From positions 1 to 64,000 of the IMG/VR virus record IMGVR_UViG_3300027801_002517: a stretch of 64,000 nucleotides of DNA. One strand, given 5' to 3'. Of this stretch, positions 43,502 to 64,000 are shown one piece after another. This stretch comes from a virus. Made by a program: the position numbers and the translations under genes. Each line of letters begins with the position of its first letter. Position 1 is the first letter of the stretch. The notes beneath the pieces were generated by a model that saw only the letters and a program-made list of their open reading frames with translations, made no database searches and had not been told where the DNA came from.

Positions 43502-44265
43502 AATTCAACCTCAATAAAGCGTTTAGATTTAGACGGAAAACTTTCCTTAATAGACTCTAAATGTTCAATAATATTATCAAGCAGTTTTTTAGTTCTACTT
43601 AACGATGCAGCATTTAATGCCTTAACTCTTATAACAACAAATCCTCTTGATAGCAATGTTCCATTTTTCTTTAGATCAAACTTTTCTTGTTTTCTTAAAT
43701 GATCATCTCCCCATATTGGTAAAAAATGTGATGGACCGTCTACCTCTATTATAGTCTTCAAATCAGGAATGTACATATCTATTTCTAATTTTTCCATAGG
43801 AATTAAATTTTCGTTATGGAAGTCTACTGAGTATCCTGCTGAAGATAATCCCTTCAAAATTTCTTTTTCAAGCTTTGACCCTTCTTTAGCTGTCCTACGA
43901 ATTGCATTAATGCCAGATGAGATCATTTTTTGTTTGTCTTCTTCTGATCTGGATTCCCATCTTTTTCGGGCTTCTTCTGCTCTTCTCTGTTTGACATCTA
44001 CATCCATATCATCCCAATAACCCTCCATGCTACTGCTGATTTTTAATTTTTCAGCTTCGGTTCTAATTTTCCCCTTTGTTGGGTGTGTAGACGTACCCTT
44101 TTCCAAAGAAACCTTTTGAGCTTCACTGGCATTTCTGGTTTCAATACCATTTTTTATTAATGTCCTTCGGATTTTATTGGGGTATGTCTGTAGCTTTTTT
44201 GCTATTTCGTGTGTACTGTGACCATCTTCATACATAGTGATGATTTTATTATCTATTTTGCTCAT
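43498..44265 (-). CDS. Free-standing homing-type endonuclease (HTH + NUMOD3-like + DUF559/Vsr-like nuclease)
   Basis: N-terminal HTH (STHEIAKKL), RTEAEKLKISSSM repeat-like motif, SKLE...EIDMYIPDLKTIIEVDGPSHF. Confidence 0.8.
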   Translation of the reverse strand: MSKIDNKIITMYEDGHSTHEIAKKLQTYPNKIRRTLIKNGIETRNASEAQKVSLEKGTSTHPTKGKIRTEAEKLKISSSMEGYWDDMDVDVKQRRAEEARKRWESRSEEDKQKMISSGINAIRRTAKEGSKLEKEILKGLSSAGYSVDFHNENLIPMEKLEIDMYIPDLKTIIEVDGPSHFLPIWGDDHLRKQEKFDLKKNGTLLSRGFVVIRVKALNAASLSRTKKLLDNIIEHLESIKESFPSKSKRFIEVEL

Positions 44266-44708
44266 GTTAACACCTCTAATAATTCTATAGCATCAATGTG
44301 CTCAAATTGGTGTACTGGTTTCTTACCAGTAATTCTGTAAAATTCCTTTGAATCCTCTTCGTCTTCGGTAATAACGTCTATAGTATTTGAAACTTCTAAA
44401 ACTTTTAGTATATCTTTATCATCCCATCTATTGTAGATATGGAAGAGTTTAAATTTGTTCACAATTTTATTGGCACTAAATGCATTATTCAGTGATGTTG
44501 TGAACAATGTTCCCGTGAAGTTCCACATATCCGCAGCGTTAAACATCCCAAAAGCTGGAATTAGAGGATTGTAATCAATATCATTATAGAACAGACTAGC
44601 ATCCTTTATTTTTCTACGTCGAATACTGCTATTGAGAGTTTTGAAAATATCTATGTTGCGATTTTCCGTATTTACTTTGTCTATATAAAAACCAATATTC
44701 TTAAGCAT
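44262..44708 (-). CDS. Hypothetical protein, possible degenerate glycosyltransferase-like domain
   Basis: NIGFYI N-terminal strand; end of the glycan operon; no clear catalytic motif. Confidence 0.4.
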   Translation of the reverse strand: MLKNIGFYIDKVNTENRNIDIFKTLNSSIRRRKIKDASLFYNDIDYNPLIPAFGMFNAADMWNFTGTLFTTSLNNAFSANKIVNKFKLFHIYNRWDDKDILKVLEVSNTIDVITEDEEDSKEFYRITGKKPVHQFEHIDAIELLEVLT

Positions 44709-45630
44709 TCTTATTCTCCATATACCAATTAATTGTTGTTTGTAAACCTTCTTTGAGTTCTACCTGAGCTTCGAATCCCAATCGTTCTTTAGCACGAGAT
44801 GTATCTAAACATCGACGCGGTTGACCGTCTGGCTTGGATGGGTCATAAATAATATCTCCTTTATATCCCATAATATTTGTAATCTCTTTTACAAGATCCT
44901 TGATTTTAATTTCCTTGCCAGTACCAATATTAATAGGCTCTGGACTTAAGTTATCACTATTGATGGCCTTGACAATTGCTTGTCCACAATCTTCAACAAA
45001 TAAGAATTCACGAGAAGCTTCACCAGTTCCCCATAAAGTAATTGATGGATCACCATTTTCTATTGCTTGATGAACTTTCAAGATAAGTGCGGGAATTACG
45101 TGACTAGAAGTCAGATTGAAATGGTCGTGAGGTCCGTACATATTTACTGGAATTAAATTAACACCATTAAAATCGTATTGCTCATGATATGCTTCCACCA
45201 GTCTCATAAGAGTCTTTTTGGCAATACCATAAGGTGCATTAGTTTCTTCTGGATAACCATTCCATAAATCTTCTTCCTTAAAAGGTACAGGTGTGAATTT
45301 GGGATATGCACAAACTGTTCCAAGTAAAATAAACTTAGGGACTTTTGCTTTCATCGCTGAATGAATTATGTTTGTACCCATGATTAGATTGTCATACATA
45401 AACTTTCCGGGATTTTCCTGATTTGCACCAATACCTCCCACACTTCCAGCAGTATGTATAATGACATCTGGAACACTTCTACTGATAACAGTATCAGTGC
45501 ATCTACATTTACGTAAATCATAAGGCTTACTGCCTATTGACCTAACTTGGCTACTGCCAAATGTTTCTTGTAAAATTTTGGTCAGGTTTGTTCCCAAAAA
45601 TCCCGTACCACCTGTTAGTAATATTCTCAC
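44701..45630 (-). CDS. fcl: GDP-L-fucose synthase family epimerase/reductase (Fcl/WcaG; could act as ColC)
   Basis: GGTGFLG, VGGIGAN, GTVCAYPK, YGIAK, PVNMYGP, SHVIPALI, WGTGEASREFL, KPDGQPRR; GTG start. Confidence 0.92.
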   Translation of the reverse strand: MRILLTGGTGFLGTNLTKILQETFGSSQVRSIGSKPYDLRKCRCTDTVISRSVPDVIIHTAGSVGGIGANQENPGKFMYDNLIMGTNIIHSAMKAKVPKFILLGTVCAYPKFTPVPFKEEDLWNGYPEETNAPYGIAKKTLMRLVEAYHEQYDFNGVNLIPVNMYGPHDHFNLTSSHVIPALILKVHQAIENGDPSITLWGTGEASREFLFVEDCGQAIVKAINSDNLSPEPINIGTGKEIKIKDLVKEITNIMGYKGDIIYDPSKPDGQPRRCLDTSRAKERLGFEAQVELKEGLQTTINWYMENKNA

Positions 45631-45653
45631 TAGTAATAATCTCCTCTAAAATA

Positions 45654-46358
45654 TTATAATCCCTTTGCTAACCAACCACCATCAACGTATATATCTTGTC
45701 CTGTTATATAGGAAGATGCGTCGGATGCAAGAAAAACAAAAGTACCAACCAGATCCTTGGGTGTTCCCCATCTATTTAGCATTGTTTTTTGAGATCTCTG
45801 CTTGTATGTTTTTTCGTCTTGCCAACTATTCTTTGTCATCTCTGTAATAAAGTATCCAGGTCCAACATTATTAACTCGAATACCATATTTACCTAAATCT
45901 AGTGCGGCTGATTTCGTTAGCTGCTTTAAAGCACCTTTAAATGCAACATAAGCAGGATTGTTTGGAAAGGCCAGTTCTGCATTTAGACTAGTGACATTAA
46001 TAATTGATCCTCCACCAGCACTTTGCATTTTAGGAGTAATGTATTGTATTAATTTATATGGAGCTTTTAAATTTACTTCATATGTTTGATTCCAAAATTT
46101 ATCAGGATAGTCCACGAAATCTGAAACATGTGTGACTCCTGCATTGTTAACTAAAATATCAATTGTATCAAATTTATCAAGATGTGTTTTCACTTGATCG
46201 TGATTTGTTATATCACACAGAATTGTATCATCACTTTCAATGATATCCAACCCGATAACATTAGCACCAAATTCTCTTAATCCATCTGCAATAGCTTTGC
46301 CGTTTCCTCTAGCGGCACCAGTGACAATAGCCACTTTATGTTCCAATGAAAATATCAT
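45654..46358 (-). CDS. Short-chain dehydrogenase/reductase
   Basis: TGAARGNG, NNAG, YVAFK, VNNVGPG, ITGQDIYVDGG. Confidence 0.93.
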   Translation of the reverse strand: MIFSLEHKVAIVTGAARGNGKAIADGLREFGANVIGLDIIESDDTILCDITNHDQVKTHLDKFDTIDILVNNAGVTHVSDFVDYPDKFWNQTYEVNLKAPYKLIQYITPKMQSAGGGSIINVTSLNAELAFPNNPAYVAFKGALKQLTKSAALDLGKYGIRVNNVGPGYFITEMTKNSWQDEKTYKQRSQKTMLNRWGTPKDLVGTFVFLASDASSYITGQDIYVDGGWLAKGL

Positions 46359-46786
46359 AGTTCTTCTACCAATTCGATTAGAGTTCCATCTGGGTCTTTA
46401 CAAAATGTAAGCATAACAGGAAAATCTGGAGATTTTTGTGGTTCGCATATAACAGTTACGTCATTTTCTAATAGCTTGTCATATAATTCCGAAAGGTTTT
46501 CTACAGTAACTGCGAAATGAGAACAACCAATATAGGTTATATCCTTATTTAATGTAATGACACCCTCGTGAGATTTATAATGTAATAACTCTACAAGCCC
46601 TCCATCATTATCTGTCATTTTAACAGTCCTGACATTCACTCCTTTTAGCCCAGAAAAGTTATCGATGTGCTGTCCAGACTCATCTGCTTCTACTATAATA
46701 GAGAATCCTAAAATGTTTGTATAAAAATGAATAGATTTTTCCAAATCTCCAACAGTTATTCCCACATGTCTAAATTTAACACTCAT
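46355..46786 (-). CDS. VOC/glyoxalase family protein (possible epimerase)
   Basis: HVGITVGDLEKSIHFY, VELL, HFAVTV, DPDGTLIELVE metal ligands. Confidence 0.9.
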   Translation of the reverse strand: MSVKFRHVGITVGDLEKSIHFYTNILGFSIIVEADESGQHIDNFSGLKGVNVRTVKMTDNDGGLVELLHYKSHEGVITLNKDITYIGCSHFAVTVENLSELYDKLLENDVTVICEPQKSPDFPVMLTFCKDPDGTLIELVEEL

Positions 46787-47493
46787 TTATTTTTCCTCGC
46801 AATTGAAAACAACATCGGTTCTTTTGAGAATCTAACTAATACATTAAACCAATGTGAAACTTCTAGTGGTGTGTCGTAATTTGGTTTGTATGGTATAGGC
46901 AACTTTCGGAATAATTTTATCAAAGGTTTCAGATAAGGGTATTTCCATAAAAAGGGTAACTGAAAAAAGTGTTCCACATAAATGTCTTCAAATCCTGCTA
47001 ATAACAGTGCTTCAGCAAGTGATTGTTTAGTCCAAGGTGTTACATGGGTATGATCACAATAGAATGGTCCCCAGTACGTATATTCCCATGCAGGTGTCAT
47101 CATTACAGCAGTGCCTCCTGGTTTTAAAGCCTCATAGGTCGCATTCATCAATCCCATAGGATTTTTCATATGTTCAATTACTGATTTAGTAAAAATCAAA
47201 TCATATTGCCCAGCATATTCTGGAGGTAAACTTTCAGATTCCAAATCAATTATTAAACTTTTGTGACCTTCAACCATATGAGTCATTAAATCAAATCCTG
47301 TGACATCAAATCCCATATCAGAGAAAACGTCTAAATATTCTCCTCTACCACATCCTAAGTCTAAAAACTTACCAGATGTCTTGCCTGTTCTTTTTACTAA
47401 TTCCTTTCCAAGTGCATATGGATATTGTGTTTTAGGAGTTTTTTTATCGGAATAAGTGATATCTAAATATTTTTCATTATTCATTATACTCAT
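46783..47493 (-). CDS. Class I SAM-dependent methyltransferase
   Basis: LDLGCGRG, KSVIEH, LKPGG, DHTH. Confidence 0.92.
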   Translation of the reverse strand: MSIMNNEKYLDITYSDKKTPKTQYPYALGKELVKRTGKTSGKFLDLGCGRGEYLDVFSDMGFDVTGFDLMTHMVEGHKSLIIDLESESLPPEYAGQYDLIFTKSVIEHMKNPMGLMNATYEALKPGGTAVMMTPAWEYTYWGPFYCDHTHVTPWTKQSLAEALLLAGFEDIYVEHFFQLPFLWKYPYLKPLIKLFRKLPIPYKPNYDTPLEVSHWFNVLVRFSKEPMLFSIARKNK

Positions 47494-48743
47494 TGTAGCA
47501 CTCCTTCCAAGACATCAAATGCCTCATTTATTGCTTCTACTGTTATAGTGAGAGGTGGTCCTAGCTTGATAGATTTACTCCAAGTATTGACTGGAAATAT
47601 ACCATTGTTGAAACAAAACTCAACCACTTCATCTGCTGTTTGTTTATCTTTAAAGATTATACCTGCAACCATTCCTTTAACATTTACATAAGAAATGGAA
47701 TCATATTTTTCTAATGTTCTCAGTCTGTCTTCAAATACTTCCACTCTTTTAGACAAGTCTTCTTGAAATTGTTTGCTTGTTAAGTAGTTTAAATTAGCTA
47801 ATCCTGCTGCACAACACAAAGCATTGCCTGCATGAGTACTACTCAAGTTAGTATCGACATCAATAATTTCTTTAGTAGATAGAACAGCAGACATTGGCAA
47901 TGAAGAAGTTATAGCTTTACCCAAACAAATAATATCTGGTTCATAGTCACCATATGTCATATATCCGTACAGTTTTCCCATTCTATAAAATCCAGATTGA
48001 ATTTCATCAAAGCAAACCAATGCACCATTATCTCTAGCAAATTTGTATAAATTTTGCAGGTATGATTGTGGATACATTTGTGCGGTTGGTCCTTGATATG
48101 TTTCAATAAAGAATGCGGCAATTTGTTCTGGTGGTGGTAATAAACTTGCATCGAATGCCTCGTCTTTATCGTATGGAAAATCAATAAATATAATATCGTC
48201 ATCAACAAGATTGGACCACTTAGTGCTATCCTTGTTGCCACAGATTAGATCAGAGCCAACAGTCCTACCATGATAACTACCATTGAAACTGACAATATAT
48301 TTTTTGTCATTCTTTTTAGCCCATATCTTTATTAACCTATAGGCAGCATCAGTGGCTTCACTACCTGAATTTAATAGAACAACTTTTTCAAAATGGTCAG
48401 GCGAACAATCTAAAAGTTTTTCTGCAAATTGTTTTCTAATATGCGTATAGTACTGATATGAGTATACTAAATCATCATCCAATTGTTTCTTAATTGCATT
48501 ATTTATTTCAGAATTAGAGTGTCCTGCATTAGATACAAAAATACCCGAAGAAAAATCTATCCATTTGTTTCCATCTTCGTCAAAAATAGAAAAGTCTTTT
48601 GCTCTATTCCACCAGATAGGAGATTGAGGATTTATAGAAGTAGATTCATAGTTATACCTTATACTATCTCGTTCCTCATTATAAAGTTTAAAGTCATTTC
48701 TAATAATTCGATGTTTAGTTTCTATCAGATTTACACTCGGCAT
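47490..48743 (-). CDS. Class III PLP-dependent aminotransferase
   Basis: DFSSG...NAGH, SGSEA, SYHGRT, FDEIQSGFYRMG, DIICLGKAI. Confidence 0.92.
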   Translation of the reverse strand: MPSVNLIETKHRIIRNDFKLYNEERDSIRYNYESTSINPQSPIWWNRAKDFSIFDEDGNKWIDFSSGIFVSNAGHSNSEINNAIKKQLDDDLVYSYQYYTHIRKQFAEKLLDCSPDHFEKVVLLNSGSEATDAAYRLIKIWAKKNDKKYIVSFNGSYHGRTVGSDLICGNKDSTKWSNLVDDDIIFIDFPYDKDEAFDASLLPPPEQIAAFFIETYQGPTAQMYPQSYLQNLYKFARDNGALVCFDEIQSGFYRMGKLYGYMTYGDYEPDIICLGKAITSSLPMSAVLSTKEIIDVDTNLSSTHAGNALCCAAGLANLNYLTSKQFQEDLSKRVEVFEDRLRTLEKYDSISYVNVKGMVAGIIFKDKQTADEVVEFCFNNGIFPVNTWSKSIKLGPPLTITVEAINEAFDVLEGVLQ

Positions 48744-49459
48744 TTATTTAAGCTTTCTAGCAAAACATTTTCTTGGATTTCCAACTGATGAGTTAATAAA
48801 TCAAATTCATACTGGGCATCGACTTCAGTAATAAATTCTGATTCATATGGAAGGATTTTGGTTGAAAAGGCAGAATTGCCAGACTCTATAGTTTCCCTTT
48901 TAGTAATATCTAAATAACCATTAGGTTGATATGCTTTAGGAAATTTTTGTCTTGGTAAATTTGTATAATCTTTTATACCATCAAAATCCTCAAAGAATCC
49001 TTCGCAATATCCTTCTTCACCTAATTTAAAAACCTTATAGGGAGATTCTGGTAATTCATGCATTGACCTCAATGCACTCATTCGGTGCCTGTTATCAAAA
49101 TAAAACTCTATACAATTGTCTATGTTCTCTGGATTCCGCAAAGGCGTTGTTGGTCTGACATATGCAACATCATTAACATCGTATAACTGAAAAAAGTGAT
49201 TAATAACTTGCCAATCTGATGAGTTATCCTGAGCATATTCTTCTGGTCTCTTTAAAATCTCTGCCCCATAAGATTTGGCAACCTCTGCAATTTCATCGTC
49301 TTCTGTTGAGACAACAATTTTATCAATTAAAGAACTCATCTTACATGCTGTAATACTATAAGATATGAGAGGATGTCCTTGTAATAGTTTAATGTTTTTT
49401 CTTGGAACACCTTTACTACCACCTCTAGCGGGAATCAATGCAATCAATTTTTTAGACAT
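48731..49459 (-). CDS. neuA: CMP-nonulosonate synthetase (acylneuraminate cytidylyltransferase)
   Basis: IPARGGSKGVPRKNI, STED, RPTTPLR, PRQ, NGYL. Confidence 0.92.
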   Translation of the reverse strand: MSKKLIALIPARGGSKGVPRKNIKLLQGHPLISYSITACKMSSLIDKIVVSTEDDEIAEVAKSYGAEILKRPEEYAQDNSSDWQVINHFFQLYDVNDVAYVRPTTPLRNPENIDNCIEFYFDNRHRMSALRSMHELPESPYKVFKLGEEGYCEGFFEDFDGIKDYTNLPRQKFPKAYQPNGYLDITKRETIESGNSAFSTKILPYESEFITEVDAQYEFDLLTHQLEIQENVLLESLNKCRV

Positions 49460-50273: not shown

Positions 50274-50295
50274 AACATTTCCTATTGTTTTTGGT

Positions 50296-51656: not shown

Positions 51657-51670
51657 AATACATTTCCTTA

Positions 51671-52375: not shown

Positions 52376-52378
52376 GTT

Positions 52379-55112: not shown

Positions 55113-55132
55113 TTAAATTCTCCTAAATTATA

Positions 55133-56272: not shown

Positions 56273-56274
56273 TT

Positions 56275-57727: not shown

Positions 57728-58568
57728 ATTCTAAAATCCTTTTCTTGTGAAAATCTATATTCAAGAAATTATCATCCCAAGATATATTTGTACTATCCAA
57801 CTGTGGTTTATAGGTAGCAAACCAATCATGAATAATGAAATGTGGTAAGGAATAGTGCTTGAATAATCTAACCATATTTGGCGTTATAACAGGAATTGAA
57901 TTAACTAATAGAGCCTCATAGTTTCTATGAGTATCATACCCAGCACCCTCTAAGCATATCGTGTACCTAAATTTATTAAGTTGTGATAAATAGTCTATAA
58001 AGGATAATTTATTTTTTTCACTATAAACAAAATCTAAAGATTTCAAATGATCAATAAATCTCTGTCTTTCAGGATTAGTCGATGCAGTATGAAATGGAAG
58101 ATAGAACATATCTAATTTATCTTCCCATCTTGACTTTAACGATTGTTGATTTTTCAAGACTGCTTGATTACCACCATCACGTTCTATCTCTTCAAACCCA
58201 ATTGGTATTGGAATTATTTTGTCATTATGAACAGACGGTGGATTTGTACAGAACCAGTATTTTAAATTTGTATTATTTAATATATCAAGGTAGGATTGAT
58301 CACCATTACGACCAACTGTGTATGAAGAAATACCACTAATAAGTGTAAATTTATTTTTTATATTAGGAAGTACATTCTTCTGAAAGACTCCGTTGTAGAT
58401 CTCGTCCGTTTTAACGAATATTATGTCATTTTCTTTAACAGTGGATGGGTCTATAGAATCAACATTGTGTAGACGCGAAACTCCAGCAGATCTATAGAAG
58501 TCTGCAGAGTGGTCAATAATATGATCTGCCACAGTTGGCATCCAATTGTAATTAATTAAGTCAATCAT
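57714..58568 (-). CDS. Exostosin/GT47-like glycosyltransferase
   Basis: IFVKTD, PIPIGF, YTICLEGAGYDTHRNYEALLVNSIPV. Confidence 0.7.
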   Translation of the reverse strand: MIDLINYNWMPTVADHIIDHSADFYRSAGVSRLHNVDSIDPSTVKENDIIFVKTDEIYNGVFQKNVLPNIKNKFTLISGISSYTVGRNGDQSYLDILNNTNLKYWFCTNPPSVHNDKIIPIPIGFEEIERDGGNQAVLKNQQSLKSRWEDKLDMFYLPFHTASTNPERQRFIDHLKSLDFVYSEKNKLSFIDYLSQLNKFRYTICLEGAGYDTHRNYEALLVNSIPVITPNMVRLFKHYSLPHFIIHDWFATYKPQLDSTNISWDDNFLNIDFHKKRILEYAKN

Positions 58569-59286
58569 ATTTAATAACTTTCCATGTGTTCAAACTGTTC
58601 TGACCCAAAGGTTGATTTCTAAAATCGTGATAAAATATTTTATCTTGTTTGGCGTATATATCTATCAGGGTCTTAAAAGAACTCTCCATGCAATGAATCT
58701 CTTCTGCTTCTTCAATAATCTTAATGAAATGAAAAACATTTTCAGAGATATCATTTTCTACAATATGTAATGATCTATCTATAAAGTGCTTTCTGTCAAG
58801 CTCAAATCCCCTGTCTACATCTTCATGAACAAATATGTAAGGCTCATTATTAGGGTTTAACTTATTAAAAACTCTTTCTTCTTCTTTTGGATCTCGTTCA
58901 AGATAGAAATATTCATGTCTCACATCATAAGGTATATTTACTTGTTCATAGAAAAATTCCCAACAATTCTTGTTTAGTTCTTTCTCAGCGGCTGGGCCTG
59001 GATAGTACTGATGCCCAACAGTTAACATATACTCAGGCTTCTCTGTCTCTATAATTTTTTTTACATCTTCGTATTCATTATCCTTACTTATTTCCCAAAC
59101 CTCAATATCATCGTTGTCTCTATACATATATTCTATCATATTAAAATAATTCGATTTTGAAAATACCGCTATTTTTTCATAAGCAGTATTTTTGCCGATA
59201 TATCGAACCATTCCATTGCAATCAAAATGATCGCCTAAGCCTAAGTGATGATGGATAAATAACTTACTCAACATATTCTCCACCAA
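58561..59286 (-). CDS. Putative GT-B glycosyltransferase
   Basis: HHHLGLGDH, FYEQVNIP, IFVHED, AEEIHCMESSF. Confidence 0.6.
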   Translation of the reverse strand: MVENMLSKLFIHHHLGLGDHFDCNGMVRYIGKNTAYEKIAVFSKSNYFNMIEYMYRDNDDIEVWEISKDNEYEDVKKIIETEKPEYMLTVGHQYYPGPAAEKELNKNCWEFFYEQVNIPYDVRHEYFYLERDPKEEERVFNKLNPNNEPYIFVHEDVDRGFELDRKHFIDRSLHIVENDISENVFHFIKIIEEAEEIHCMESSFKTLIDIYAKQDKIFYHDFRNQPLGQNSLNTWKVIKYD

Positions 59287-60088
59287 AGGTAGCTAATTCT
59301 GGTTTGAAATTCTGCTTTATAAATTCAAGATATCCCTTGCTATTTTCTATATCATCATATACAGCAGGGTCAAATTCTATACCGTCTATTATATCAATAG
59401 GAGTCGGAGTGTCATTAAAGTTTAAATTATTAACAACTGGGTCATATCTTTCATTAATGTAATCATTAGCGTGATTCCAAGTAACACTTTCATAATGCTT
59501 ATACCATAATTGCTTGAGAGCATAAAATCTTTTATTAATAGATTGTAAATGTATAACACCAACGTCTTTGGTCCACACTTTAGGTAAATTTATAGTTGGA
59601 AGCCTTGGTGTGTGATATTTATAAAGAGACATATCAAACTTTTCACAGTGCTCCAACGATACAAAAAATGTTCTATAATTGTCTACATACATAGGGTCTT
59701 GACGGATAGTATCTAAATTTCCCACAACATTAAACCAGTACAACTGGAGATCGTGCGACACACAAAGATTGGTTACCTCCTCCCAATTGGTTAACAAGTT
59801 AGTACTAAGTAGCTCATCAGCGTCTATAGCAAGGACTAAATCTGCTCCCTGCTCTCTGGAATATTCCAGCATAGTAGATCTATTCCTTGACTCACTAAAC
59901 TTTGATTCCTGCCCCTCAAATACCATAGCATGATCTTGGAAGTTTTCCTTAATTACATTTGTAGTATTGTCTGTAGAGTTATCATTATAGAACACCCATT
60001 TATCTACAGGGTATTGATTCCAATATTTAAAAACATGTGGTAATATAATACTTTCGTCTTTTACCATTACATTAGCATGAACGATCAT
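59264..60088 (-). CDS. GT2-family glycosyltransferase
   Basis: VMVKDE, NDNSTDNT, IDADE, VIHL. Start moved to 60088. Confidence 0.85.
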   Translation of the reverse strand: MIVHANVMVKDESIILPHVFKYWNQYPVDKWVFYNDNSTDNTTNVIKENFQDHAMVFEGQESKFSESRNRSTMLEYSREQGADLVLAIDADELLSTNLLTNWEEVTNLCVSHDLQLYWFNVVGNLDTIRQDPMYVDNYRTFFVSLEHCEKFDMSLYKYHTPRLPTINLPKVWTKDVGVIHLQSINKRFYALKQLWYKHYESVTWNHANDYINERYDPVVNNLNFNDTPTPIDIIDGIEFDPAVYDDIENSKGYLEFIKQNFKPELATFGGEYVE

Positions 60089-60755
60089 AGCCCGCTTCCG
60101 TTTTAATGTAGTCGAAAAAATACCCAGAATCATCTAAAATCTTGTCATTACCATCATATGCCTGACCTACAAAAAACTGTGGATGTCTAGATATACGAGG
60201 AAAATTATTTAATAGATAATGGTCATGCTCTAGTGCTTTGTTTTTAACTAAAGGATATATTATTTCCTTTAAGAACATTTGATCGACTTGCCATTTGTTA
60301 TCCAGTTCACCTTTATCATAATCTTCTATCATAGCTTTAATTCCGGCCAATAAGCTATTTCTACATCCCCACATACCACCTAATATTTCTGTTTGATGAT
60401 ATGGATGATCTCTCATAATATGAAAATCTTTATCACTGTTGAGCCATTCATCAACTGCTGCCTTTTCTCGGTATCCTAACCTAGAATCTGCATCCCGCGA
60501 AATCATTACATCTGGACTATCTGCCGCATAAAAACGCCAAAACATACCGTTCCAACCGACTGTTTCCATTAATACACATTCTGATCCTAAATCTGTCAAC
60601 TGTTTGATAATATCTGATGACACATCTATTCCACAATAAAACCTACATATCCAATCTGGATATATTGACCTAGCCAATTGAGCATTTCTAATAGCTCCTA
60701 TTATATACCTTGAAGATTGTCCCCACAAACTAAAAGCAATGATTTTTTGAGTCAT
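60072..60755 (-). CDS. Putative GT-A glycosyltransferase (FSLWG / RDADS / RDHPxH family)
   Basis: IAFSLWG, GMFWRF, SRDADSR, FHIMRDHPYH, ILGGMWG, DQMFL. Confidence 0.65.
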   Translation of the reverse strand: MTQKIIAFSLWGQSSRYIIGAIRNAQLARSIYPDWICRFYCGIDVSSDIIKQLTDLGSECVLMETVGWNGMFWRFYAADSPDVMISRDADSRLGYREKAAVDEWLNSDKDFHIMRDHPYHQTEILGGMWGCRNSLLAGIKAMIEDYDKGELDNKWQVDQMFLKEIIYPLVKNKALEHDHYLLNNFPRISRHPQFFVGQAYDGNDKILDDSGYFFDYIKTEAGYDRSC

Positions 60756-60764
60756 AATAGTTCC

Positions 60765-61526
60765 TCAATCTGTAGTGATTCTCTCCGTTGGAAATCTACG
60801 CTGTTTTCTTTCGTTGAACACTTGATTGTCCCTACCAGAAAAATAGAGAGTCTTTTGTGCAGAATAATCACAATCTCCAGAGTTAGAATTACCTTCTTCG
60901 GCATAGTGTTCATGTTTAATAATTATTTTATCAATATATGTAACCTTATCTAACCTCTTGACTTCTTCTGTAAATTCTTGATCAGAATATAGACTCTTGT
61001 AGTCTGGATGGTAGATATACCCAAAGTGGTCATACAACTTTCTTCCCAAAATAGAAAATGTTATTAGTCCATCCTTATCAGCATGTCCATCGTCAAATGA
61101 GATACAACCATCTAAATCGGGATAATGCTCCTCCATAGCCTGTACGATTTCATCATCCCAATTATTCACTTGTGGAATCATATCATCTGAAATAACAATT
61201 ACAATATCCCAGTTCGTTGATCCCTCTATAAGAGCATTATCGATATTGCCATTTACAGCACTAATTTTAGTTGTATGTTTTTCAAAGCACACGGCTCCAG
61301 AACAAAAGTGATCGTGCCATTTATCTTGATTGTTCCTAGTTTGATAATCAAATGCTTCTTGGATCATATCTTGAACTTCTGTGCAGTTCATAGTCGTATC
61401 ATCAATGTCGCAATTAATGTTGAAAAAGATATCATGCCGACCACTGGTGGTATTGAGATACTTCTTCAAGCAAGACAAAAACTTTTCAGGTCTTGCTAAT
61501 GTTGGAAATTGAGCTAATATTTTCAT
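60765..61526 (-). CDS. GT-A fold glycosyltransferase (GT2-like)
   Basis: FPTLARP, DIDD, ISDDM, YSDQEF, IKHEH. Confidence 0.75.
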   Translation of the reverse strand: MKILAQFPTLARPEKFLSCLKKYLNTTSGRHDIFFNINCDIDDTTMNCTEVQDMIQEAFDYQTRNNQDKWHDHFCSGAVCFEKHTTKISAVNGNIDNALIEGSTNWDIVIVISDDMIPQVNNWDDEIVQAMEEHYPDLDGCISFDDGHADKDGLITFSILGRKLYDHFGYIYHPDYKSLYSDQEFTEEVKRLDKVTYIDKIIIKHEHYAEEGNSNSGDCDYSAQKTLYFSGRDNQVFNERKQRRFPTERITTD

Positions 61527-62392
61527 AACTGTTCCTCTAAGCTTTTAACCTTATTGGCTTCGTCTGTACATTCAATAGCCTTTAATAGTCTAATAGTTCT
61601 ATTAAAACATGTGTGCTTACGTTTGATTTGTCCTTTTATAGCCTCGGAAATGTTATCAGCTTCTTGCTCGTGGAACAATGTTGCTAAAATTTTGTTCAAA
61701 GTTTCTTTTTGATTGTCTGGAACCTGTAGTATAGTGGAGGGACATCTAAAAGTAGCTTCAAAAAATAATTGAGAAAACACAACATGTAAATCGTCAACCA
61801 GTAAAGCTTTACTATATCTGTCAACTATACTGATAAAACTCGAAATGTCAATATTAAAATCAAAATCTTTTTCATCAGTTCCAATTCCTATTGTGTGATA
61901 TGATTCTTCCTTGTCTGTAAAACTTTTAATTGTATCTGTGCTACCACTCGTAACAATGCAGGTTGGTAAATTGAATGGTGTAACTTCTTGTTTAGGGACA
62001 AAAATATCCAATCCTGGTAGTATGTTAATCAATTTGGTCTGTGATTTATTTAATGGACTCATTAACTCGTGAGTGTTTGTAAACAATAATTTTGATTTAA
62101 TTTTTCTTGATGTAAATTCTTGTTCAATCTGATTAATCATTTGATTATCTGCACCTGTGATATTCAAAACCACCTCAATATTACTGCCACTTAAATATTT
62201 CATAATGTCTTGTGTAATGAACCGAAAGTGAGTCAGGAAAACATCTGGGCTGGTGGCATCGAAAATATCAAATGTACTAATATTCTTATCAGCCCAAAAC
62301 ACTGCATCACATTTAGACTCAACCATACACCTATGTAAATACAATGATTCAGTAGAAAGAGGTGTTGAATAATTTTGTAGTAACATTTTCAT
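61523..62392 (-). CDS. Hypothetical, degenerate GT-B-like protein
   Basis: SPDVFLTH, FFEA, C-terminal IKRKHTCFNR resembling the HTxxxR end of CgeB-like GTs. Confidence 0.45.
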   Translation of the reverse strand: MKMLLQNYSTPLSTESLYLHRCMVESKCDAVFWADKNISTFDIFDATSPDVFLTHFRFITQDIMKYLSGSNIEVVLNITGADNQMINQIEQEFTSRKIKSKLLFTNTHELMSPLNKSQTKLINILPGLDIFVPKQEVTPFNLPTCIVTSGSTDTIKSFTDKEESYHTIGIGTDEKDFDFNIDISSFISIVDRYSKALLVDDLHVVFSQLFFEATFRCPSTILQVPDNQKETLNKILATLFHEQEADNISEAIKGQIKRKHTCFNRTIRLLKAIECTDEANKVKSLEEQL

Positions 62393-63138
62393 AATTTTGT
62401 GGTCTTTCTTAAAACCTTGATGTTATCAATTTTTCTTATTGGTTTATTTACAGTATTTGGTTGAATATTTAAAGTCTTTTTTTTACATAATTCATTAATT
62501 GCCTCAAACATAAACTTGTTTTTATATTCTGTTGTAGATACAATTTTGTAAAAGGCATCTATTAAATTTAAATCGTTCAGATATAGAATTTCCGTCCAAT
62601 ATTTACTCTTTATTCCTAACGACAATCTTTGTAACTTTTGTTGTCTTTCTTCTATAATTCCTATTTCGAAGTTGGAATCATCTATTTGATTTTGTACAAC
62701 AACACAAGAACTGTTTAAATCCATCATATCTAAATGTGATGAATAAAACAAAACTCCTCCACCAAAAAAAATAATCTTATCATTCATTATTGTATTCAAG
62801 CACAGTCTGATACTTTCGCAACAATTCGAGTTGTAATACATTTGATTTTCAACAACTTTGATATTTACATTTGAGAATTTGCTTTTCAAAAAATGTACAA
62901 TTTTTATAGATTCAAATCCAACACAAACAATAATTTCAAAATTCTGGAAGCTCGCTTTAATGCTTTCTATTTGTTTCTCTAGAACTGTTTTTCCGTTCTC
63001 CATCTTTAGCATAGAGATTGGTCCATAACTTTTCATCCTATATCCATGATTTTCACCCAGCAAGACTACGGTCATAAAGTCTTTTTTCTTGGCAGTCTTC
63101 CCTTTTTTCGGACTAGTAATGAAATTCTTATTTCTCAT
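62389..63138 (-). CDS. Sugar/choline-phosphate nucleotidyltransferase-like protein (degenerate motif)
   Basis: VVLLGENHGYRMKSYGPISML (AAGxGxR-like), CVGF, VENQMY, SIRLCL, IDN. Confidence 0.65.
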   Translation of the reverse strand: MRNKNFITSPKKGKTAKKKDFMTVVLLGENHGYRMKSYGPISMLKMENGKTVLEKQIESIKASFQNFEIIVCVGFESIKIVHFLKSKFSNVNIKVVENQMYYNSNCCESIRLCLNTIMNDKIIFFGGGVLFYSSHLDMMDLNSSCVVVQNQIDDSNFEIGIIEERQQKLQRLSLGIKSKYWTEILYLNDLNLIDAFYKIVSTTEYKNKFMFEAINELCKKKTLNIQPNTVNKPIRKIDNIKVLRKTTKL

Positions 63139-63854
63139 AAATTTTTAACCATATTATTCAATTCAGCGATAGTTTCAATTTCTTGAATTGTCTTGTTGAA
63201 ATCATTGTGTTTTAAATACTCATTATTAATAGCTGAAAATAACGAACAAGTTATATTCCCCTGTTTGAAGATTATATTCTTATCTAAATCATAATTAAGT
63301 GATGTATCTATTTTAGAGAATAGATCAGGATTGATAATGTCTCCAGCATGTAGTTTACTTAAATAGTTACTACCATACAAATTGGAAAAACAACTGAAAT
63401 CACGAACTCGTGCTTCTTTAACCCCTGTCAAAACTAATCGAGAATTTTTAAATCCATTATTAATTAATGCGTTAGTAAGATGTGCCATTTTTGATACATC
63501 TTTAGTTGTGAATGAACTGATAATTACTTTTATTTTATCGGGTGGATATTGAGTGTCTAAAATTGAGCTGATAGTTTTTTCTACTTTATCGGGAGTACCT
63601 TCGTCGTATATGGCTATCCCGAAAGTAGGCTTAATTTCATTCTGTGCCTCTTCAAGTGTAATTTCAGTGTCTTCATCCCTATATAGATTACAAAGCCGTG
63701 TGAGTCCATATAGTGTGCCTGTGGCTTCTCTAACAACCAAGCACTCTTGACGTTCTTTAAAACTTTTTATTCTTTTACCCCTACAACCTATCTGTAAATT
63801 ACCAATATGCTCACCTTCAAGTTTTTTAGCAAATTTACAACCCTTACAGGTCAT
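63135..63854 (-). CDS. Cys-rich N-terminus plus degenerate GT2-like domain
   Basis: CKGC...GC...LCNLYR then TISSILDTQYPPDKIKVII; DxD not evident. Likely start at 63854. Confidence 0.5.
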   Translation of the reverse strand: MTCKGCKFAKKLEGEHIGNLQIGCRGKRIKSFKERQECLVVREATGTLYGLTRLCNLYRDEDTEITLEEAQNEIKPTFGIAIYDEGTPDKVEKTISSILDTQYPPDKIKVIISSFTTKDVSKMAHLTNALINNGFKNSRLVLTGVKEARVRDFSCFSNLYGSNYLSKLHAGDIINPDLFSKIDTSLNYDLDKNIIFKQGNITCSLFSAINNEYLKHNDFNKTIQEIETIAELNNMVKNL

Positions 63855-63861
63855 AGCCACT

Positions 63862-64000
63862 TTATCGTTCTGCGGTGATTTCATAATATATACCATTAAT
63901 TTGAGTAGTTATAACTTTTAAATCAAGTTGGGATATCATATCTGCAGTTTGTGTTACATCTGACATAGACTTACAATTTGCAACTACTTCGGATGCATCT
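63862..64000 (-). CDS. 3' end of an ORF entering from beyond the window
   Basis: Open frame DASEVVANCKSMSDVTQTADMISQLDLKVITTQINGIYYEITAER* ending at TAA 63864-63862. Confidence 0.6.
   Translation of the reverse strand, partial: DASEVVANCKSMSDVTQTADMISQLDLKVITTQINGIYYEITAER

What the first reader, a model, noticed from the sequence alone, without database searches (positions are those of the whole stretch)
44262..64000. ~20-kb all-soluble glycan cluster facing the tail module
Seen: about 25 tightly coupled genes, including nucleotide-sugar enzymes and at least seven GT-like genes. None shows obvious multi-pass membrane segments, and no Wzx/Wzy, Und-P transferase, GtrAB or oligosaccharyltransferase is visible in the window. 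Established: serotype-converting phage loci rely on membrane components. Inference: the product is built stepwise on a cytoplasmic acceptor, most simply the SG-rich virion proteins. DNA hypermodification is the alternative, but no base-hydroxymethylase is seen here.
Basis: partly seen in the sequence, partly recalled or inferred. Interest (0 to 1): 0.8.

Follow-up and report, generated by a model that had tools for sequence, protein, structure and literature searches.

The report
Phage sugar-coat operon with swappable island
An uncultured 157-kb marine phage carries a 30-gene, membrane-free sugar-building operon with a conserved core and a swappable 15-kb middle; it most likely coats the phage's own fibre proteins with complex sugars, but that target is unproven.

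Summary
The operon runs from 44,262 to 68,102, which is 4.1 kb past the window end, and has 30 genes with no gap above 23 bp. It encodes a nonulosonic-acid branch capped by an animal-type (GT29-like) sialyltransferase, amino- and uronic-sugar enzymes, a fucose-type branch and at least nine glycosyltransferase-like genes.

No multi-pass membrane protein, priming transferase, GtrA, integrase or ThyA-type base hydroxylase is found in the 94%-complete genome.

New findings:
- The end next to the replication genes is a conserved core. Its 566-aa GT4 is better conserved than the DNA polymerase.
- The middle, 45,646-60,760, is a cassette replaced cleanly in a relative with 83-92% identical flanks.
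- In 75 relatives the island ranges from 10 bp to over 9.5 kb, and none of 469 island ORFs is multi-pass.
- Gmd and a further GT2 lie elsewhere. The GT2 sits in the head module, paired in about 30 relatives with a Ser/Thr-rich fibre protein.

Virion glycosylation is the best reading (about 0.5). Host-envelope remodelling and DNA glycosylation remain rivals. The Ser-Gly sequon and late expression are not supported.

Earlier notes of this scan reported smaller sialic-type cassettes beside capsid genes in other phages.

The parts
44262..44708 (-). 148-aa protein of unknown function. It is the last gene of the operon and is conserved at the tail-proximal edge in most relatives.
   Evidence: No Pfam hit. 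An orthologue sits at the same place in most of the 75 anchored loci.
44701..45630 (-). Fcl-like NDP-4-keto-6-deoxyhexose epimerase/reductase (GDP-fucose-synthase type). It marks the left edge of the swappable island. Its partner Gmd (GDP-mannose 4,6-dehydratase) lies outside the window at genome 126,386-127,492 (+).
   Evidence: PF01370 E 3e-53; NF047922 GDP-L-fucose synthase 296 bits, below the 500-bit cut-off. 66-90% identity in G001-G003. Gmd: PF16363 367 bits. In L012, L014, L019 and L040 its homologue lies beside the nonulosonate island and an Fcl-like gene.
45646..60760 (.). Swappable 15.1-kb glycan island (cassette). It holds all the nonulosonate, aminosugar and uronic-sugar genes and three or four transferases.
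   Evidence: blastn of G000 against G001: 83-92% identity on both sides and no similarity inside. NeuB is absent from G001-G004. Relatives carry other GT families there. Island length in 75 relatives runs from 10 bp to over 9.5 kb.
45654..46358 (-). Short-chain dehydrogenase (KduD / gluconate-5-dehydrogenase-like), probably a sugar-tailoring oxidoreductase.
   Evidence: PF13561 E 1.5e-55.
46355..47493 (-). VOC/glyoxalase-fold protein (46355-46786) and SAM methyltransferase (46783-47493), both tailoring enzymes.
   Evidence: PF00903 E 1.3e-18; PF13489 E 1.7e-23. They travel with the aminotransferase, CMP-synthetase and NeuB in about 12 unrelated viral contigs.
47490..48743 (-). Class-III (omega-type) aminotransferase, probably aminating the ulosonic acid or its precursor.
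   Evidence: PF00202 E 7.6e-71. Closest cellular relatives are at most 30% identical; viral relatives are 55-59% identical.
48731..49459 (-). CMP-ulosonate (nonulosonate) synthetase.
   Evidence: PF02348 E 4e-23; TIGR03584 PseF E 2.3e-33, below its cut-off.
49452..50324 (-). NeuB-type nonulosonate synthase, 290 aa.
   Evidence: PF03102 E 3e-63; TIGR03569 234 bits, below the 400-bit cut-off. 41 viral loci carry relatives at 32-74% identity.
50296..51656 (-). Truncated SDR (50296-50943) and a short NeuB paralogue (50940-51656).
   Evidence: PF13561 E 3e-21; PF03102 E 7e-14. The paralogue is 30% identical to NeuB. Both are conserved in L019.
51671..52375 (-). Soluble GT29-like sialyltransferase, the likely capping nonulosonate transferase.
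   Evidence: PF00777 30.9 bits, above the 23-bit cut-off. Sialylmotif L and S are visible in alignment A6. The profile hits ST8SiaIII at E 4.5e-5. AF2 model pLDDT 77; the Foldseek top hits are all mammalian GT29, then GT42 CstII. No hydrophobic anchor.
52379..53116 (-). NadE-like PP-loop ATP-pyrophosphatase. It is either an NAD+ synthetase or a sugar amidotransferase.
   Evidence: PF02540 E 1.6e-49; TIGR00552 179 bits, above its cut-off. Absent from the otherwise matching island of L019.
53113..54360 (-). NDP-sugar 6-dehydrogenase, which makes a uronic acid.
   Evidence: TIGR03026 193 bits, above its cut-off; PF03721 and PF00984.
54360..55112 (-). 250-aa protein of unknown function.
   Evidence: No Pfam hit. 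Orthologue in L019 at 54% identity.
55133..57369 (-). Two DegT/PseC/LegC-type sugar aminotransferases (55133-56272 and 56275-57369).
   Evidence: PF01041 E 4.6e-67 and 2.4e-110. The LegC-family and PseC models score below their cut-offs.
57344..59286 (-). DUF6165 protein (57344-57727), weak GT47-like protein (57714-58568) and a 241-aa unknown (58561-59286).
   Evidence: PF19662 E 5e-14. PF03016 E 2.8e-4 is below its cut-off. All three are syntenic in L019.
59264..60133 (-). GT2-family glycosyltransferase.
   Evidence: PF13704 31.2 bits, above the 27.5-bit cut-off; PF00535 E 2e-4.
60072..60755 (-). 227-aa unknown, the last gene inside the island's right edge.
   Evidence: No Pfam hit. Present in a subset of relatives at 42-66% identity.
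60765..61526 (-). 253-aa member of a large uncharacterised phage family. It is GT-A-like by its SDDM and HEHY motifs only, and is the first gene of the conserved block in the nearer relatives.
   Evidence: At least 2,008 clusters and none with a Pfam domain. No PDB hit. 24 of 53 loci.
61523..62392 (-). Core gene: 289-aa GT-B-like protein.
   Evidence: ESM-Atlas feature hits to Glyco_trans_1_2 clusters, score 0.92 (a lead only). 46 of 53 loci.
62389..63138 (-). Core gene: LicC-like nucleotidyltransferase, which activates a phospho-compound or a sugar-1-phosphate.
   Evidence: Profile A4 hits CTP:phosphocholine cytidylyltransferase 1jyk over its full length, E 6e-5. 51 of 53 loci.
63135..63896 (-). 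Core gene: 253-aa GT-A (GT2-like) protein.
   Evidence: ESM-Atlas structure TM 0.52-0.57 to GT2 clusters and feature score 0.90 (a lead only). 41 of 53 loci.
63862..64000 (-). Core gene of 137 aa, function unknown, cut by the window end; the full gene is 63,862-64,275.

The operon CONTINUES BEYOND THE WINDOW (genome numbering is the same as the window's) with three core GT4 transferases at 64,275-65,282, 65,275-66,405 and 66,402-68,102. The last is the 566-aa hallmark enzyme.

Also outside the window lie the head-module GT2 (146,620-147,648, +) and its neighbour, a 975-aa Ser/Thr/Gly-rich repeat protein (147,661-150,588, +). They are the best candidate enzyme-acceptor pair.
   Evidence: 137-aa gene: ORF call; no Pfam hit; 46 of 53 loci.

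GT4 genes: PF00534 E 5e-17, 3e-11 and 8e-10. Present in 53/53, 52/53 and 53/53 loci. GT4-566 has a median identity of 71%, against 63-64% for PolIII. AF2 pLDDT 82, GT-B fold; top Foldseek hit is the chlorovirus NY2A transferase 3oy2. At least 3,540 clusters, one of them with an intein.

Head-module GT2: PF00535 E 4.7e-11. The pair is conserved in 32 of 67 loci, and 30 loci have a next ORF with S+T of at least 0.20. It lies downstream of the capsid gene in relatives.

Best explanation
This is a virus-autonomous glycosylation system that works without a lipid carrier. It has three layers.

1. Donor supply (shown by homology). The phage makes its own activated sugars:
- a CMP-nonulosonate, from NeuB and the CMP-synthetase, tailored by an aminotransferase, a methyltransferase, SDRs and a VOC protein
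- a GDP-6-deoxyhexose, from Gmd at 126 kb and the Fcl-like enzyme at 44.7 kb
- amino- and uronic sugars, from two DegT enzymes and a 6-dehydrogenase
- one product of the LicC-like nucleotidyltransferase

2. Conserved core (shown by comparison). Three GT4 enzymes, a GT-A-like enzyme, a GT-B-like enzyme and the nucleotidyltransferase sit directly after the replisome genes. I infer that they build an inner glycan on an acceptor that is invariant across the lineage.

3. Swappable island (shown by comparison). The 15-kb cassette supplies strain-specific outer sugars and their transferases. Here I infer that the glycan ends in a nonulosonate added by a soluble GT29-like sialyltransferase.

Inferred acceptor. 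The acceptor is most likely Ser/Thr-rich virion fibre proteins, glycosylated in the cytoplasm before assembly. This would give the particle a variable sugar coat analogous to a bacterial serotype. A separate GT2 in the head module, next to a Ser/Thr-rich repeat protein, would start or extend glycans on that protein.
For: - Donor pathways and transferases are identified by Pfam, NCBIfam, PDB profiles and folds.
- No multi-pass protein, GtrA, priming transferase or integrase is found in the 94%-complete genome.
- None of 469 island ORFs in 75 relatives has two or more hydrophobic segments.
- The core is nearly universal (41-53 of 53 loci). GT4-566 is better conserved than PolIII and carries an intein in one relative. 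This fits a function intrinsic to the phage.
- The island is exchanged cleanly between phages with 83-92% identical flanks, while the giant tail proteins stay 87-91% identical.
- The island gene pool is very diverse: 152 families, and 356 of 469 ORFs have no homologue in this phage's cluster.
- The head-module GT2 is paired with a Ser/Thr-rich fibre protein in about 30 relatives.
- A mucin-like Thr/Pro-rich linker lies in the neighbouring 539-aa protein.
- Known routes to glycosylated DNA need a ThyA homologue or a TET-type oxidase. The ThyA family is absent with good controls. The TET search found nothing but lacked a usable positive control.
- Precedents exist. Mycobacteriophage capsid and tail-tube glycans are cited in PMC12619734. 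Clade-specific fibril glycosylation clusters of Megavirinae are described in PMC10117803.
Against: - There is no direct evidence for any acceptor.
- Transferases of lipid-linked pathways are also soluble or peripheral, so the missing membrane genes could be supplied by the host.
- The main operon is co-oriented with the replication genes, directly downstream of them, and lacks the candidate late-promoter word.
- The head-module GT2 is absent from the four relatives examined whole, so it may be a self-contained system unrelated to the big operon.
- The core is conserved while the head-fibre proteins are hypervariable, so the invariant acceptor has not been identified.
- The GT4-566 fold is generic. 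Its top hit is a chlorovirus enzyme of unknown function, followed by small-molecule GT4s such as MshA, BshA and sucrose-phosphate synthase.
Confidence: 0.5

Rival explanations
1. Host-envelope remodelling. The phage enzymes load new sugars onto the host's own undecaprenyl-linked intermediates. The host's priming transferase, flippase or ABC transporter, and ligase then display the altered glycan. This masks receptors, blocking superinfection and preventing progeny from sticking to debris.
For: - Large 'LPS' or 'cell-wall' clusters in lytic marine cyanophages have long been read this way: 24 genes in P-SSM2 (PMC1079782) and 22 genes with 13 transferases in S-SCSM2R (PMC12801897).
- O-antigen transferases are peripheral proteins, so an all-soluble set is compatible with this route.
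- The architecture of conserved flanks around a variable centre mimics O-antigen and capsule loci.
- The receptor-binding end of the neighbouring tail fibre is swapped in the same pair of phages, at 38,864-41,517. This is what one would expect if the fibre and the glycan track the same host surface.
- Early or middle expression would leave time for export.
Against: - None of 75 islands ever carries a flippase, polymerase, priming transferase or acyltransferase, although bacterial loci of this kind almost always do.
- There is no integrase.
- The core is nearly universal and better conserved than the polymerase, with an intein in one relative. That is unusual for an accessory host-modifying function.
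- A transferase sits inside the head module.
Confidence: 0.22
2. DNA hypermodification. The transferases next to the replisome glycosylate a modified base in phage DNA, and the island varies the glycan to evade restriction.
For: - The core lies immediately after PolIII and the SSB-like gene in 53 of 53 loci, and is probably co-transcribed with them.
- The phage encodes a dNMP kinase.
- Phage DNA can carry di- and tri-saccharides and poly-arabinose built by phage transferases with phage-made sugar nucleotides (10.1101/2023.12.21.572611; PMC13326640).
- A further GT4-like gene, at 93,856-94,899, lies near ThyX.
Against: - All known routes start from a ThyA homologue (5hmC, 5hmU, 5hoC) or a TET-type oxidase.
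- PF00303 is absent from this genome and from a 100%-complete relative, with ringing controls.
- Tet_JBP was not found, though that control is weak.
- ThyX looks canonical.
- The only C5-methylase is 40 kb away, next to a GmrSD-like nuclease gene, a type known to attack sugar-modified DNA.
- Nine or more transferases and nonulosonate chemistry far exceed any known DNA glycan.
Confidence: 0.07
3. Another cytoplasmic acceptor. The glycan goes onto a non-virion phage protein, a host protein, or a small molecule or free oligosaccharide such as an osmolyte-like glycoside, rather than onto the particle.
For: - The nearest folds to GT4-566 include small-molecule GT4 enzymes: MshA, BshA, sucrose-phosphate synthase and GlgM.
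- The operon sits with early or middle genes.
- No acceptor-recognition domain could be named. The C-terminal helical extension of GT4-566 (about residues 440-566) is uncharacterised.
Against: - Nine or more transferases and four donor branches argue for a complex glycan, not a simple glycoside.
- Cassette-type hypervariability points to a surface-exposed product under diversifying selection.
- The GT29-like enzyme belongs to a family that caps glycan chains.
Confidence: 0.12

Closest known systems
Fibril and capsid glycosylation clusters of giant viruses (Megavirinae, PMC10117803; reviewed in PMC9614988; chloroviruses)
   Same: - Virus-encoded nucleotide-sugar pathways for rare bacterial-type sugars, plus many soluble transferases.
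- The glycan is built in the cytoplasm without host membrane machinery.
- Cluster content differs between clades.
- The best structural match of the core GT4 is a chlorovirus NY2A transferase.
   Different: - Those are eukaryotic giant viruses, with glycans shown chemically on fibrils and capsid.
- Here the virus is a tailed phage and nothing has been shown chemically.
- The genes are not orthologous.
- Here a conserved core is joined to a cleanly swappable island.
Mycobacteriophage virion O-glycosylation (Freeman et al. 2023, as cited in PMC12619734 and PMC12801897; the paper itself was not held)
   Same: - Phage-encoded transferases glycosylate capsid and tail-tube subunits.
- The transferase genes sit among structural genes, as the head-module GT2 at 146,620 does here.
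   Different: - Those cassettes have a few genes and use host sugar nucleotides.
- Here there are 30 genes with their own donor pathways.
- Here the main block sits beside the replication genes, not among the structural genes.
'LPS' or 'cell-wall' gene clusters of large marine cyanomyoviruses (P-SSM2, 24 genes, PMC1079782; S-SCSM2R, 22 genes with 13 transferases, PMC12801897)
   Same: - Large transferase-rich clusters with epimerases and Kdo-type genes in lytic marine phages.
- Their function has never been established.
   Different: - They belong to a different phage lineage (T4-like).
- They are read as host-surface or DNA modification.
- The passages I read do not mention a nonulosonate branch with a GT29-type transferase, a core-plus-cassette architecture or a clade-wide absence of membrane genes; I did not read those papers in full.
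Flagellin O-glycosylation islands using Maf or FlmG transferases (10.1101/2022.03.25.485807)
   Same: - Soluble enzymes use CMP-nonulosonates to glycosylate Ser/Thr of a secreted structural protein in the cytoplasm.
- The GT-A domain of Maf resembles GT29 and GT42.
   Different: - No Maf (PF01973) is present here.
- The transferase here is closer to animal GT29 than to GT42 or Maf.
- Many more transferases are present, implying an oligosaccharide rather than a single sugar.
Phage DNA glycan hypermodification clusters (10.1101/2023.12.21.572611; arabinosyl-5hoC of RB69 and DLP3, PMC13326640)
   Same: - Phage transferases, sometimes together with phage sugar-nucleotide genes.
- They are often located near replication genes.
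   Different: - They depend on a ThyA homologue or a TET-type oxidase, usually clustered with the transferase.
- The ThyA family is absent here and no TET-type oxidase was detected.
Bacterial O-antigen and capsule loci, and serotype-converting prophage loci (GtrABC, Wzy, O-acetyltransferases)
   Same: - Conserved flanks with a recombining central region.
- Great diversity of sugars and transferases.
   Different: - Those always include integral membrane components, and for prophages an integrase.
- None is present here.

Membership tests
Virus-autonomous virion glycosylation systems (giant viruses, mycobacteriophages) | Virus-encoded glycosyltransferases, with or without virus-encoded nucleotide-sugar synthesis | tested here: met
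   At least nine GT-like genes and four donor branches.
Virus-autonomous virion glycosylation systems (giant viruses, mycobacteriophages) | Soluble machinery with no lipid-carrier or export components | tested here: met
   Hydropathy scan of the genome and of 469 island ORFs in relatives; PF04138 and PF02397 absent with positive controls.
Virus-autonomous virion glycosylation systems (giant viruses, mycobacteriophages) | Transferase genes embedded among structural genes, next to the acceptor | tested here: inconclusive
   Met for the GT2 at 146,620-147,648, which is paired with a Ser/Thr-rich protein in about 30 relatives. Not met for the 30-gene operon, which follows the replication genes.
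Virus-autonomous virion glycosylation systems (giant viruses, mycobacteriophages) | Glycan chemically demonstrated on virion proteins | not testable with these tools
   The lineage is uncultured. The closest cultured phage terminase is about 25% identical.
Serotype-converting phage loci (GtrABC, Wzy, Oac) | Integral membrane flippase, transferase or polymerase | tested here: not met
   No GtrA. No protein above 160 aa has two or more hydrophobic segments.
Serotype-converting phage loci (GtrABC, Wzy, Oac) | Temperate lifestyle (integrase) | tested here: not met
   PF00589 absent; the control rings in 14 of 14 genomes. Serine recombinases were not tested.
Wzx/Wzy- or ABC-dependent O-antigen and capsule loci | Initiating phosphoglycosyl transferase, flippase or transporter, and polymerase in the locus | tested here: not met
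   PF02397 absent. No multi-pass ORF in this operon or in 75 related islands.
Wzx/Wzy- or ABC-dependent O-antigen and capsule loci | Conserved flanks around a recombining, highly diverse central region | tested here: met
   Clean swap at 45,646-60,760. 152 island families in 75 loci.
Phage DNA glycosyl hypermodification pathways | ThyA-homologue hydroxymethylase or hydroxylase, or a TET-type 5-methylpyrimidine oxidase | tested here: not met
   PF00303 absent from G000 and G001-G004, with ringing controls. PF12851 was not found, but that search had no ringing control.
Phage DNA glycosyl hypermodification pathways | Non-canonical glycosylated base in packaged DNA | not testable with these tools
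   Needs nucleoside LC-MS or native-DNA sequencing signal.
Maf/FlmG flagellin-type nonulosonate O-glycosylation | Maf (MptE-like, PF01973) or FlmG transferase | tested here: not met
   PF01973 absent at E 0.1 or better; the control rings. No Maf appears among the fold or profile hits of the GT29-like enzyme. FlmG was not searched for specifically.
Maf/FlmG flagellin-type nonulosonate O-glycosylation | NeuB-type synthase plus CMP-activating enzyme | tested here: met
   PF03102 E 3e-63 and PF02348 E 4e-23, in adjacent genes.
CAZy GT29 sialyltransferases | Sialylmotifs L and S and the GT-A variant-2 fold | tested here: met
   Motifs seen in alignment A6. PF00777 above its cut-off. ST8SiaIII profile hit at E 4.5e-5. 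Foldseek top hits are all GT29, TM 0.5-0.57.
CAZy GT29 sialyltransferases | Type-II membrane anchor and stem (Golgi enzymes) | tested here: not met
   The protein is 234 aa, and its highest hydropathy window is 1.55, located internally.
Complete Neu/Leg/Pse nonulosonate pathway | Upstream steps: nucleotide-sugar 4,6-dehydratase or hydrolysing 2-epimerase, and an N-acetyltransferase | tested here: inconclusive
   No Epimerase_2, Polysacc_synt_2 (as best family) or acetyltransferase hit in the operon. Three island proteins remain unassigned (54360, 58561, 60072). All equivalog models score below their cut-offs, so the identity of the sugar is open.

The most novel reading that the evidence does not exclude
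A globally abundant, uncultured lineage of roughly 160-kb marine phages has true 'serotypes'. Its hallmark GT4 has at least 3,540 sequence clusters in metagenomes. An essential, conserved core-glycan module and a recombining outer-glycan cassette would together coat the virion's fibre proteins with complex glycans. The island of this phage points to a sialic-like sugar, while fucosyl- and sulfo-transferases are seen only in relatives' islands. Soluble, Golgi-type transferase families (GT29, GT10, GT47, GT32) would assemble these glycans entirely in the cytoplasm with no lipid carrier. That would be a phage counterpart of bacterial O-antigen diversity and of giant-virus fibril glycosylation.
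Probability: 0.4. Interest if true: 0.85.

Novelty: new variant of a known kind. Interest (0 to 1): 0.64.

Why it matters
Large sugar-gene clusters in lytic marine phages have been known since 2005, but their purpose has never been settled. This case sharpens the question in four ways.
- The machinery is membrane-free across a whole lineage.
- Its core is as conserved as the replisome.
- Its outer part is exchanged like a serotype cassette.
- One transferase is genetically paired with a Ser/Thr-rich head-fibre protein.

That yields concrete enzyme-acceptor pairs that can be tested in E. coli without culturing the phage.

If virions are the target, phage particles in the sea would carry variable glycan coats. 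This could affect adsorption, grazing, aggregation and recognition by host defences. It would also be a new source of soluble sialyl-, fucosyl- and sulfo-transferases.

Tried and rejected
- Megablast of the 20-kb region against cultured phages found no match.
- PHROGs on ten upstream structural proteins gave no hits.
- Sigma-70 promoter and terminator scans were at chance level and uninformative.
- A genome-contig scan with the class-III aminotransferase found only relatives at 30% identity or less, so no bacterial model cluster emerged.
- Profile searches of the 60765 and 61523 families against PDB sequences gave nothing usable. hhalign of the 60765 family against the operon's GT2 also gave nothing.
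- PDB sequence searches of the two tail-fibre proteins and of the head-module GT2 gave no hits, so no sialidase or depolymerase domain could be named.
- The GT4-566 weak sequence hit to the serine-rich-repeat O-GlcNAc transferase Gtf1 (5e9t, E 0.005, 42 residues) was rejected as evidence. It lies in the generic GT4 motif, and Gtf1 is not among the Foldseek matches listed.
- I considered that 42,398-44,265 belong to the glycan system and rejected it. They encode a zinc-ribbon protein, an unknown protein and an HTH plus DUF559/Vsr-like nuclease-fold protein.
- The single-protein scan for the head-module GT2 found nothing. The alignment-based scan found at least 536 relatives.
Context of metagenomic homologues was taken from IMG/VR loci instead.
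- The Freeman et al. 2023 paper was not held.

Full report
**What the window is.** The window is the first 64 kb of a 157,369-bp IMG/VR phage record rated 94% complete. The plus strand from 1 to 42,320 carries tail genes: a 1,942-aa tape-measure protein (PF10145), a 5,382-aa giant protein and two fibre-sized proteins. From 42,398 a minus-strand block runs to about 118 kb. The terminase is only about 25% identical to any cultured phage, and the region has no nucleotide match among cultured phages. The lineage is therefore uncultured. Host hints point to the Planctomycetota-Verrucomicrobiota group.

**The observation.**
- From 44,262 to the window end there are 25 complete, tightly packed minus-strand genes and one cut gene.
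- The operon continues to 68,102 with three clear GT4 transferases. It then abuts an SSB-like gene, a split PolIII-alpha with an exonuclease between its halves, a PD-(D/E)XK nuclease, a dNMP kinase, a primase and a helicase.
- Over all 30 genes, 25 of 29 junctions overlap or are within 3 bp, and the largest gap is 23 bp.

Family searches give these genes, in order of transcription:
1. GT4 (566 aa), GT4, GT4
2. a 137-aa unknown
3. a GT-A-like protein
4. a LicC-like nucleotidyltransferase (PDB 1jyk, E 6e-5, full length)
5. a GT-B-like protein
6. a 253-aa member of a very large uncharacterised family
7. a 227-aa unknown
8. GT2, an unknown, a weak GT47-like protein and a DUF6165 protein
9. two DegT aminotransferases and an unknown
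10. an NDP-sugar 6-dehydrogenase and a NadE-like enzyme
11. a GT29-like sialyltransferase
12. a short NeuB paralogue, an SDR, NeuB and a CMP-ulosonate synthetase
13. a class-III aminotransferase, a methyltransferase, a VOC protein and an SDR
14. an Fcl-like reductase and a 148-aa unknown

**The sialyltransferase is genuine.**
- Sialylmotifs L and S are visible in an alignment with eight viral relatives.
- The profile hits human ST8SiaIII, ST3Gal1 and ST6Gal1.
- The AlphaFold model (pLDDT 77) is matched first by mammalian GT29 structures and then by GT42 CstII.
- It has no membrane anchor.

**Membrane machinery is absent.**
- No operon protein has two hydrophobic 19-residue windows, and the genome has no multi-pass protein longer than 160 aa.
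- GtrA, the priming phosphoglycosyl transferase family and a tyrosine integrase are absent. Positive controls ring in 10-14 of 14 reference genomes.

**Core and island.**
- The 566-aa GT4 has 357 relatives in IMG/VR and at least 3,540 clusters in metagenomes. The best 120 are all at least 72% identical, and one carries an intein.
- I examined 53 loci with 8-kb flanks. PolIII is present in 53, GT4-566 in 53, the second GT4 in 52, the third GT4 in 53, the LicC-like gene in 51, the GT-B-like gene in 46 and the GT-A-like gene in 41.
- GT4-566 has a median identity of 71%, against 63-64% for the polymerase halves.
- The middle of the operon is not conserved. Relative G001 is collinear at 83-92% nucleotide identity over 19.3-37.4 kb, 41.5-45.6 kb and 60.8-98.7 kb. 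It shares nothing between 45,646 and 60,760.
- NeuB is absent from G001-G004, including a 100%-complete 166.8-kb genome.
- Those relatives carry other families in the same place: GT47, GT32, GT10 fucosyltransferase, GT25, GT2, sulfotransferase, FkbM methyltransferase, PIG-L and ManC-like genes.
- I anchored 75 relatives on the conserved gene downstream. The distance from the last core gene to the operon's end ranges from 10 bp to 8.8 kb in 56 loci, with a median of 2.3 kb. It exceeds 9.5 kb in the other 19.
- The 469 island ORFs fall into 152 families, and 356 have no homologue in this phage's cluster.
- None of the 469 has two hydrophobic segments.
- The nonulosonate sub-module (VOC, methyltransferase, aminotransferase, CMP-synthetase, NeuB) recurs at 35-60% identity in about a dozen otherwise unrelated viral contigs. 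One 185-kb contig shares about 16 island genes in order.

**Glycan genes outside the operon.**
- Gmd (367 bits) lies at 126,386-127,492 near a sigma-factor-like gene at the head of the plus-strand block. Together with the Fcl-like enzyme it completes a GDP-6-deoxyhexose branch. In four unrelated phages its homologue sits beside the nonulosonate island.
- A GT4-like gene lies at 93,856-94,899 near ThyX.
- Most telling, a GT2 (E 4.7e-11) lies at 146,620-147,648 inside the head module. On one side is a 539-aa protein with a mucin-like Thr/Pro-rich linker. On the other is a 975-aa protein with 14.5% Ser, 12.4% Thr and tandem repeats of the SGVAVSGWA type.
- This GT2 has at least 536 IMG/VR relatives. 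In the best 80 loci it lies downstream of capsid-gene homologues.
- In 32 of 67 loci the next ORF, 5-216 bp away, is a homologue of the 975-aa protein. In 30 loci the next ORF has a Ser+Thr fraction of at least 0.20, against 0.144 for the proteome.
- The GT2 is absent from G001-G004. The region between the capsid gene and the connector genes is hypervariable.

**Timing proxy.** The word GTGTATAAW occurs 14 times, against 6.7 expected. There is no copy on the minus strand between 42 and 88 kb. By this weak proxy the operon is expressed with the replisome genes, while the head-module GT2 is late.

**Interpretation.** The best reading is a virus-autonomous, lipid-independent glycosylation system. 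A conserved core builds an inner glycan, and a swappable island adds strain-specific outer sugars, here capped by a nonulosonate through the GT29-like enzyme. The donor pathways, transferase families, lack of membrane parts, core conservation and cassette exchange are shown here. The acceptor is inferred. Virion fibre proteins are favoured (about 0.5) for these reasons:
- the GT2-fibre gene pair
- the lineage-wide absence of export genes
- the lytic lifestyle
- the essential-gene-like conservation of the core
- the lack of a base hydroxylase
- precedents in mycobacteriophages (cited in PMC12619734) and giant viruses (PMC10117803)

**Rivals.**
- Host-envelope remodelling through host membrane machinery (0.22). 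This is the classical reading of cyanophage clusters (PMC1079782, PMC12801897). It fits the co-swapped fibre tip at 38,864-41,517 and the early timing.
- DNA glycosylation (0.07). Every known route needs a ThyA homologue or a TET-type oxidase (10.1101/2023.12.21.572611; PMC13326640). The ThyA family is absent with good controls, and the TET search found nothing but lacked a ringing control.
- Another cytoplasmic acceptor (0.12).

The Ser-Gly excess is real: 96 observed against 48 expected in the giant protein, 52 against 16 in the 975-aa protein, and 105 against 101 in non-structural proteins. In the extreme case it reflects structural repeats. 'Late expression' is not supported for the operon.

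**Novelty.** Transferase-rich clusters in marine phages, virion glycosylation in phages and giant viruses, and DNA glycans are all known. In the papers I could search I did not find five things:
- the combination of a replisome-linked conserved core with a cleanly exchangeable island
- membrane-free status across 75 islands
- a nonulosonate branch with an animal-type sialyltransferase
- Golgi-type transferase families in sister islands
- a transferase paired with a Ser/Thr-rich head-fibre gene

Earlier notes of this scan (unchecked AI notes) reported smaller nonulosonate-plus-sialyltransferase cassettes beside capsid genes in other phages, so the theme recurs. I class this as a new variant of a known kind.

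Noticed in passing
P0096 (homologue of the GT4 at genome 66,402-68,102): One 929-aa homologue of the hallmark GT4 carries an intein (PF14890 with the LAGLIDADG domain PF14528). Inteins usually sit in essential, highly conserved phage proteins.
   Followed up: no
genome 106,085-109,200 (beyond the window): A C5 DNA methylase (108,124-109,200) lies next to a GmrSD-like DUF262 plus HNH nuclease (106,686-108,110) and a 5-formyl-THF cyclo-ligase (106,085-106,726). A phage-borne type-IV-like nuclease may target competitors' modified DNA.
   Followed up: partly
window 52379-53116: A NadE-like NAD+ synthetase gene sits inside the glycan island but is missing from the otherwise syntenic island of L019. 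It may be an independent NAD-replenishing gene rather than a sugar amidotransferase.
   Followed up: partly
genome 93,856-96,043 (beyond the window): A further GT4-like gene (93,856-94,899) lies two small genes away from a canonical-looking ThyX (95,363-96,043). If any transferase of this phage acts on DNA, this is the better candidate.
   Followed up: partly
genome 124,646-127,492 (beyond the window): Three genes sit together at the start of the plus-strand block, before the first candidate late promoter: a sigma-70 region-2-like protein, a 148-aa fatty-acid-hydroxylase-family protein with two hydrophobic segments, and Gmd.
   Followed up: no
genome 144,991-146,610 (beyond the window): A 539-aa head-module protein has a roughly 40-residue Thr/Ser/Pro-rich mucin-like linker (about 145,915-146,041) and a Cys-rich C-terminal part. 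It is a textbook-looking O-glycosylation target directly upstream of the GT2.
   Followed up: no
window 38864-41517: The C-terminal two thirds of the 1,260-aa fibre protein is replaced in relative G001, whose flanks are 75-92% identical. It is a second recombination hot spot only 4 kb from the glycan island.
   Followed up: partly
window 43498-44265: A strongly conserved 255-aa protein has an N-terminal HTH-like segment and a C-terminal DUF559/Vsr-like nuclease fold. It always sits just after the glycan operon (210 IMG/VR relatives). Its function is unknown, and it could be a regulator or a domesticated homing nuclease.
   Followed up: partly
window 60765-61526: A 236-253-aa protein family has at least 2,008 metagenomic clusters, no Pfam domain, and invariant SDDM and HEHY motifs. 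It is probably a new GT-A-like family specific to this phage lineage.
   Followed up: partly
window 4731, 41538; genome 131,144, 133,196, 136,290, 152,571, 92,556, 102,242: The word GTGTATAAW lies 19-89 bp upstream of structural genes and of genes near the reported lysis region (14 copies against 6.7 expected). It is a candidate late promoter, perhaps read by the phage's sigma-like protein.
   Followed up: partly
genome 68,457-72,328 (beyond the window): DNA polymerase III alpha is split into two genes (PHP/NTPase part and finger part), with a DnaQ-like exonuclease gene between them. The arrangement is conserved across the lineage.
   Followed up: no
L151:18745-19338 (relative G003): The complete relative G003 has a class-I methyltransferase (PF13578) and an Ig-like (Big_12) fibre protein in its hypervariable head-fibre region, but no Pfam-detectable transferase there.
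   Followed up: no
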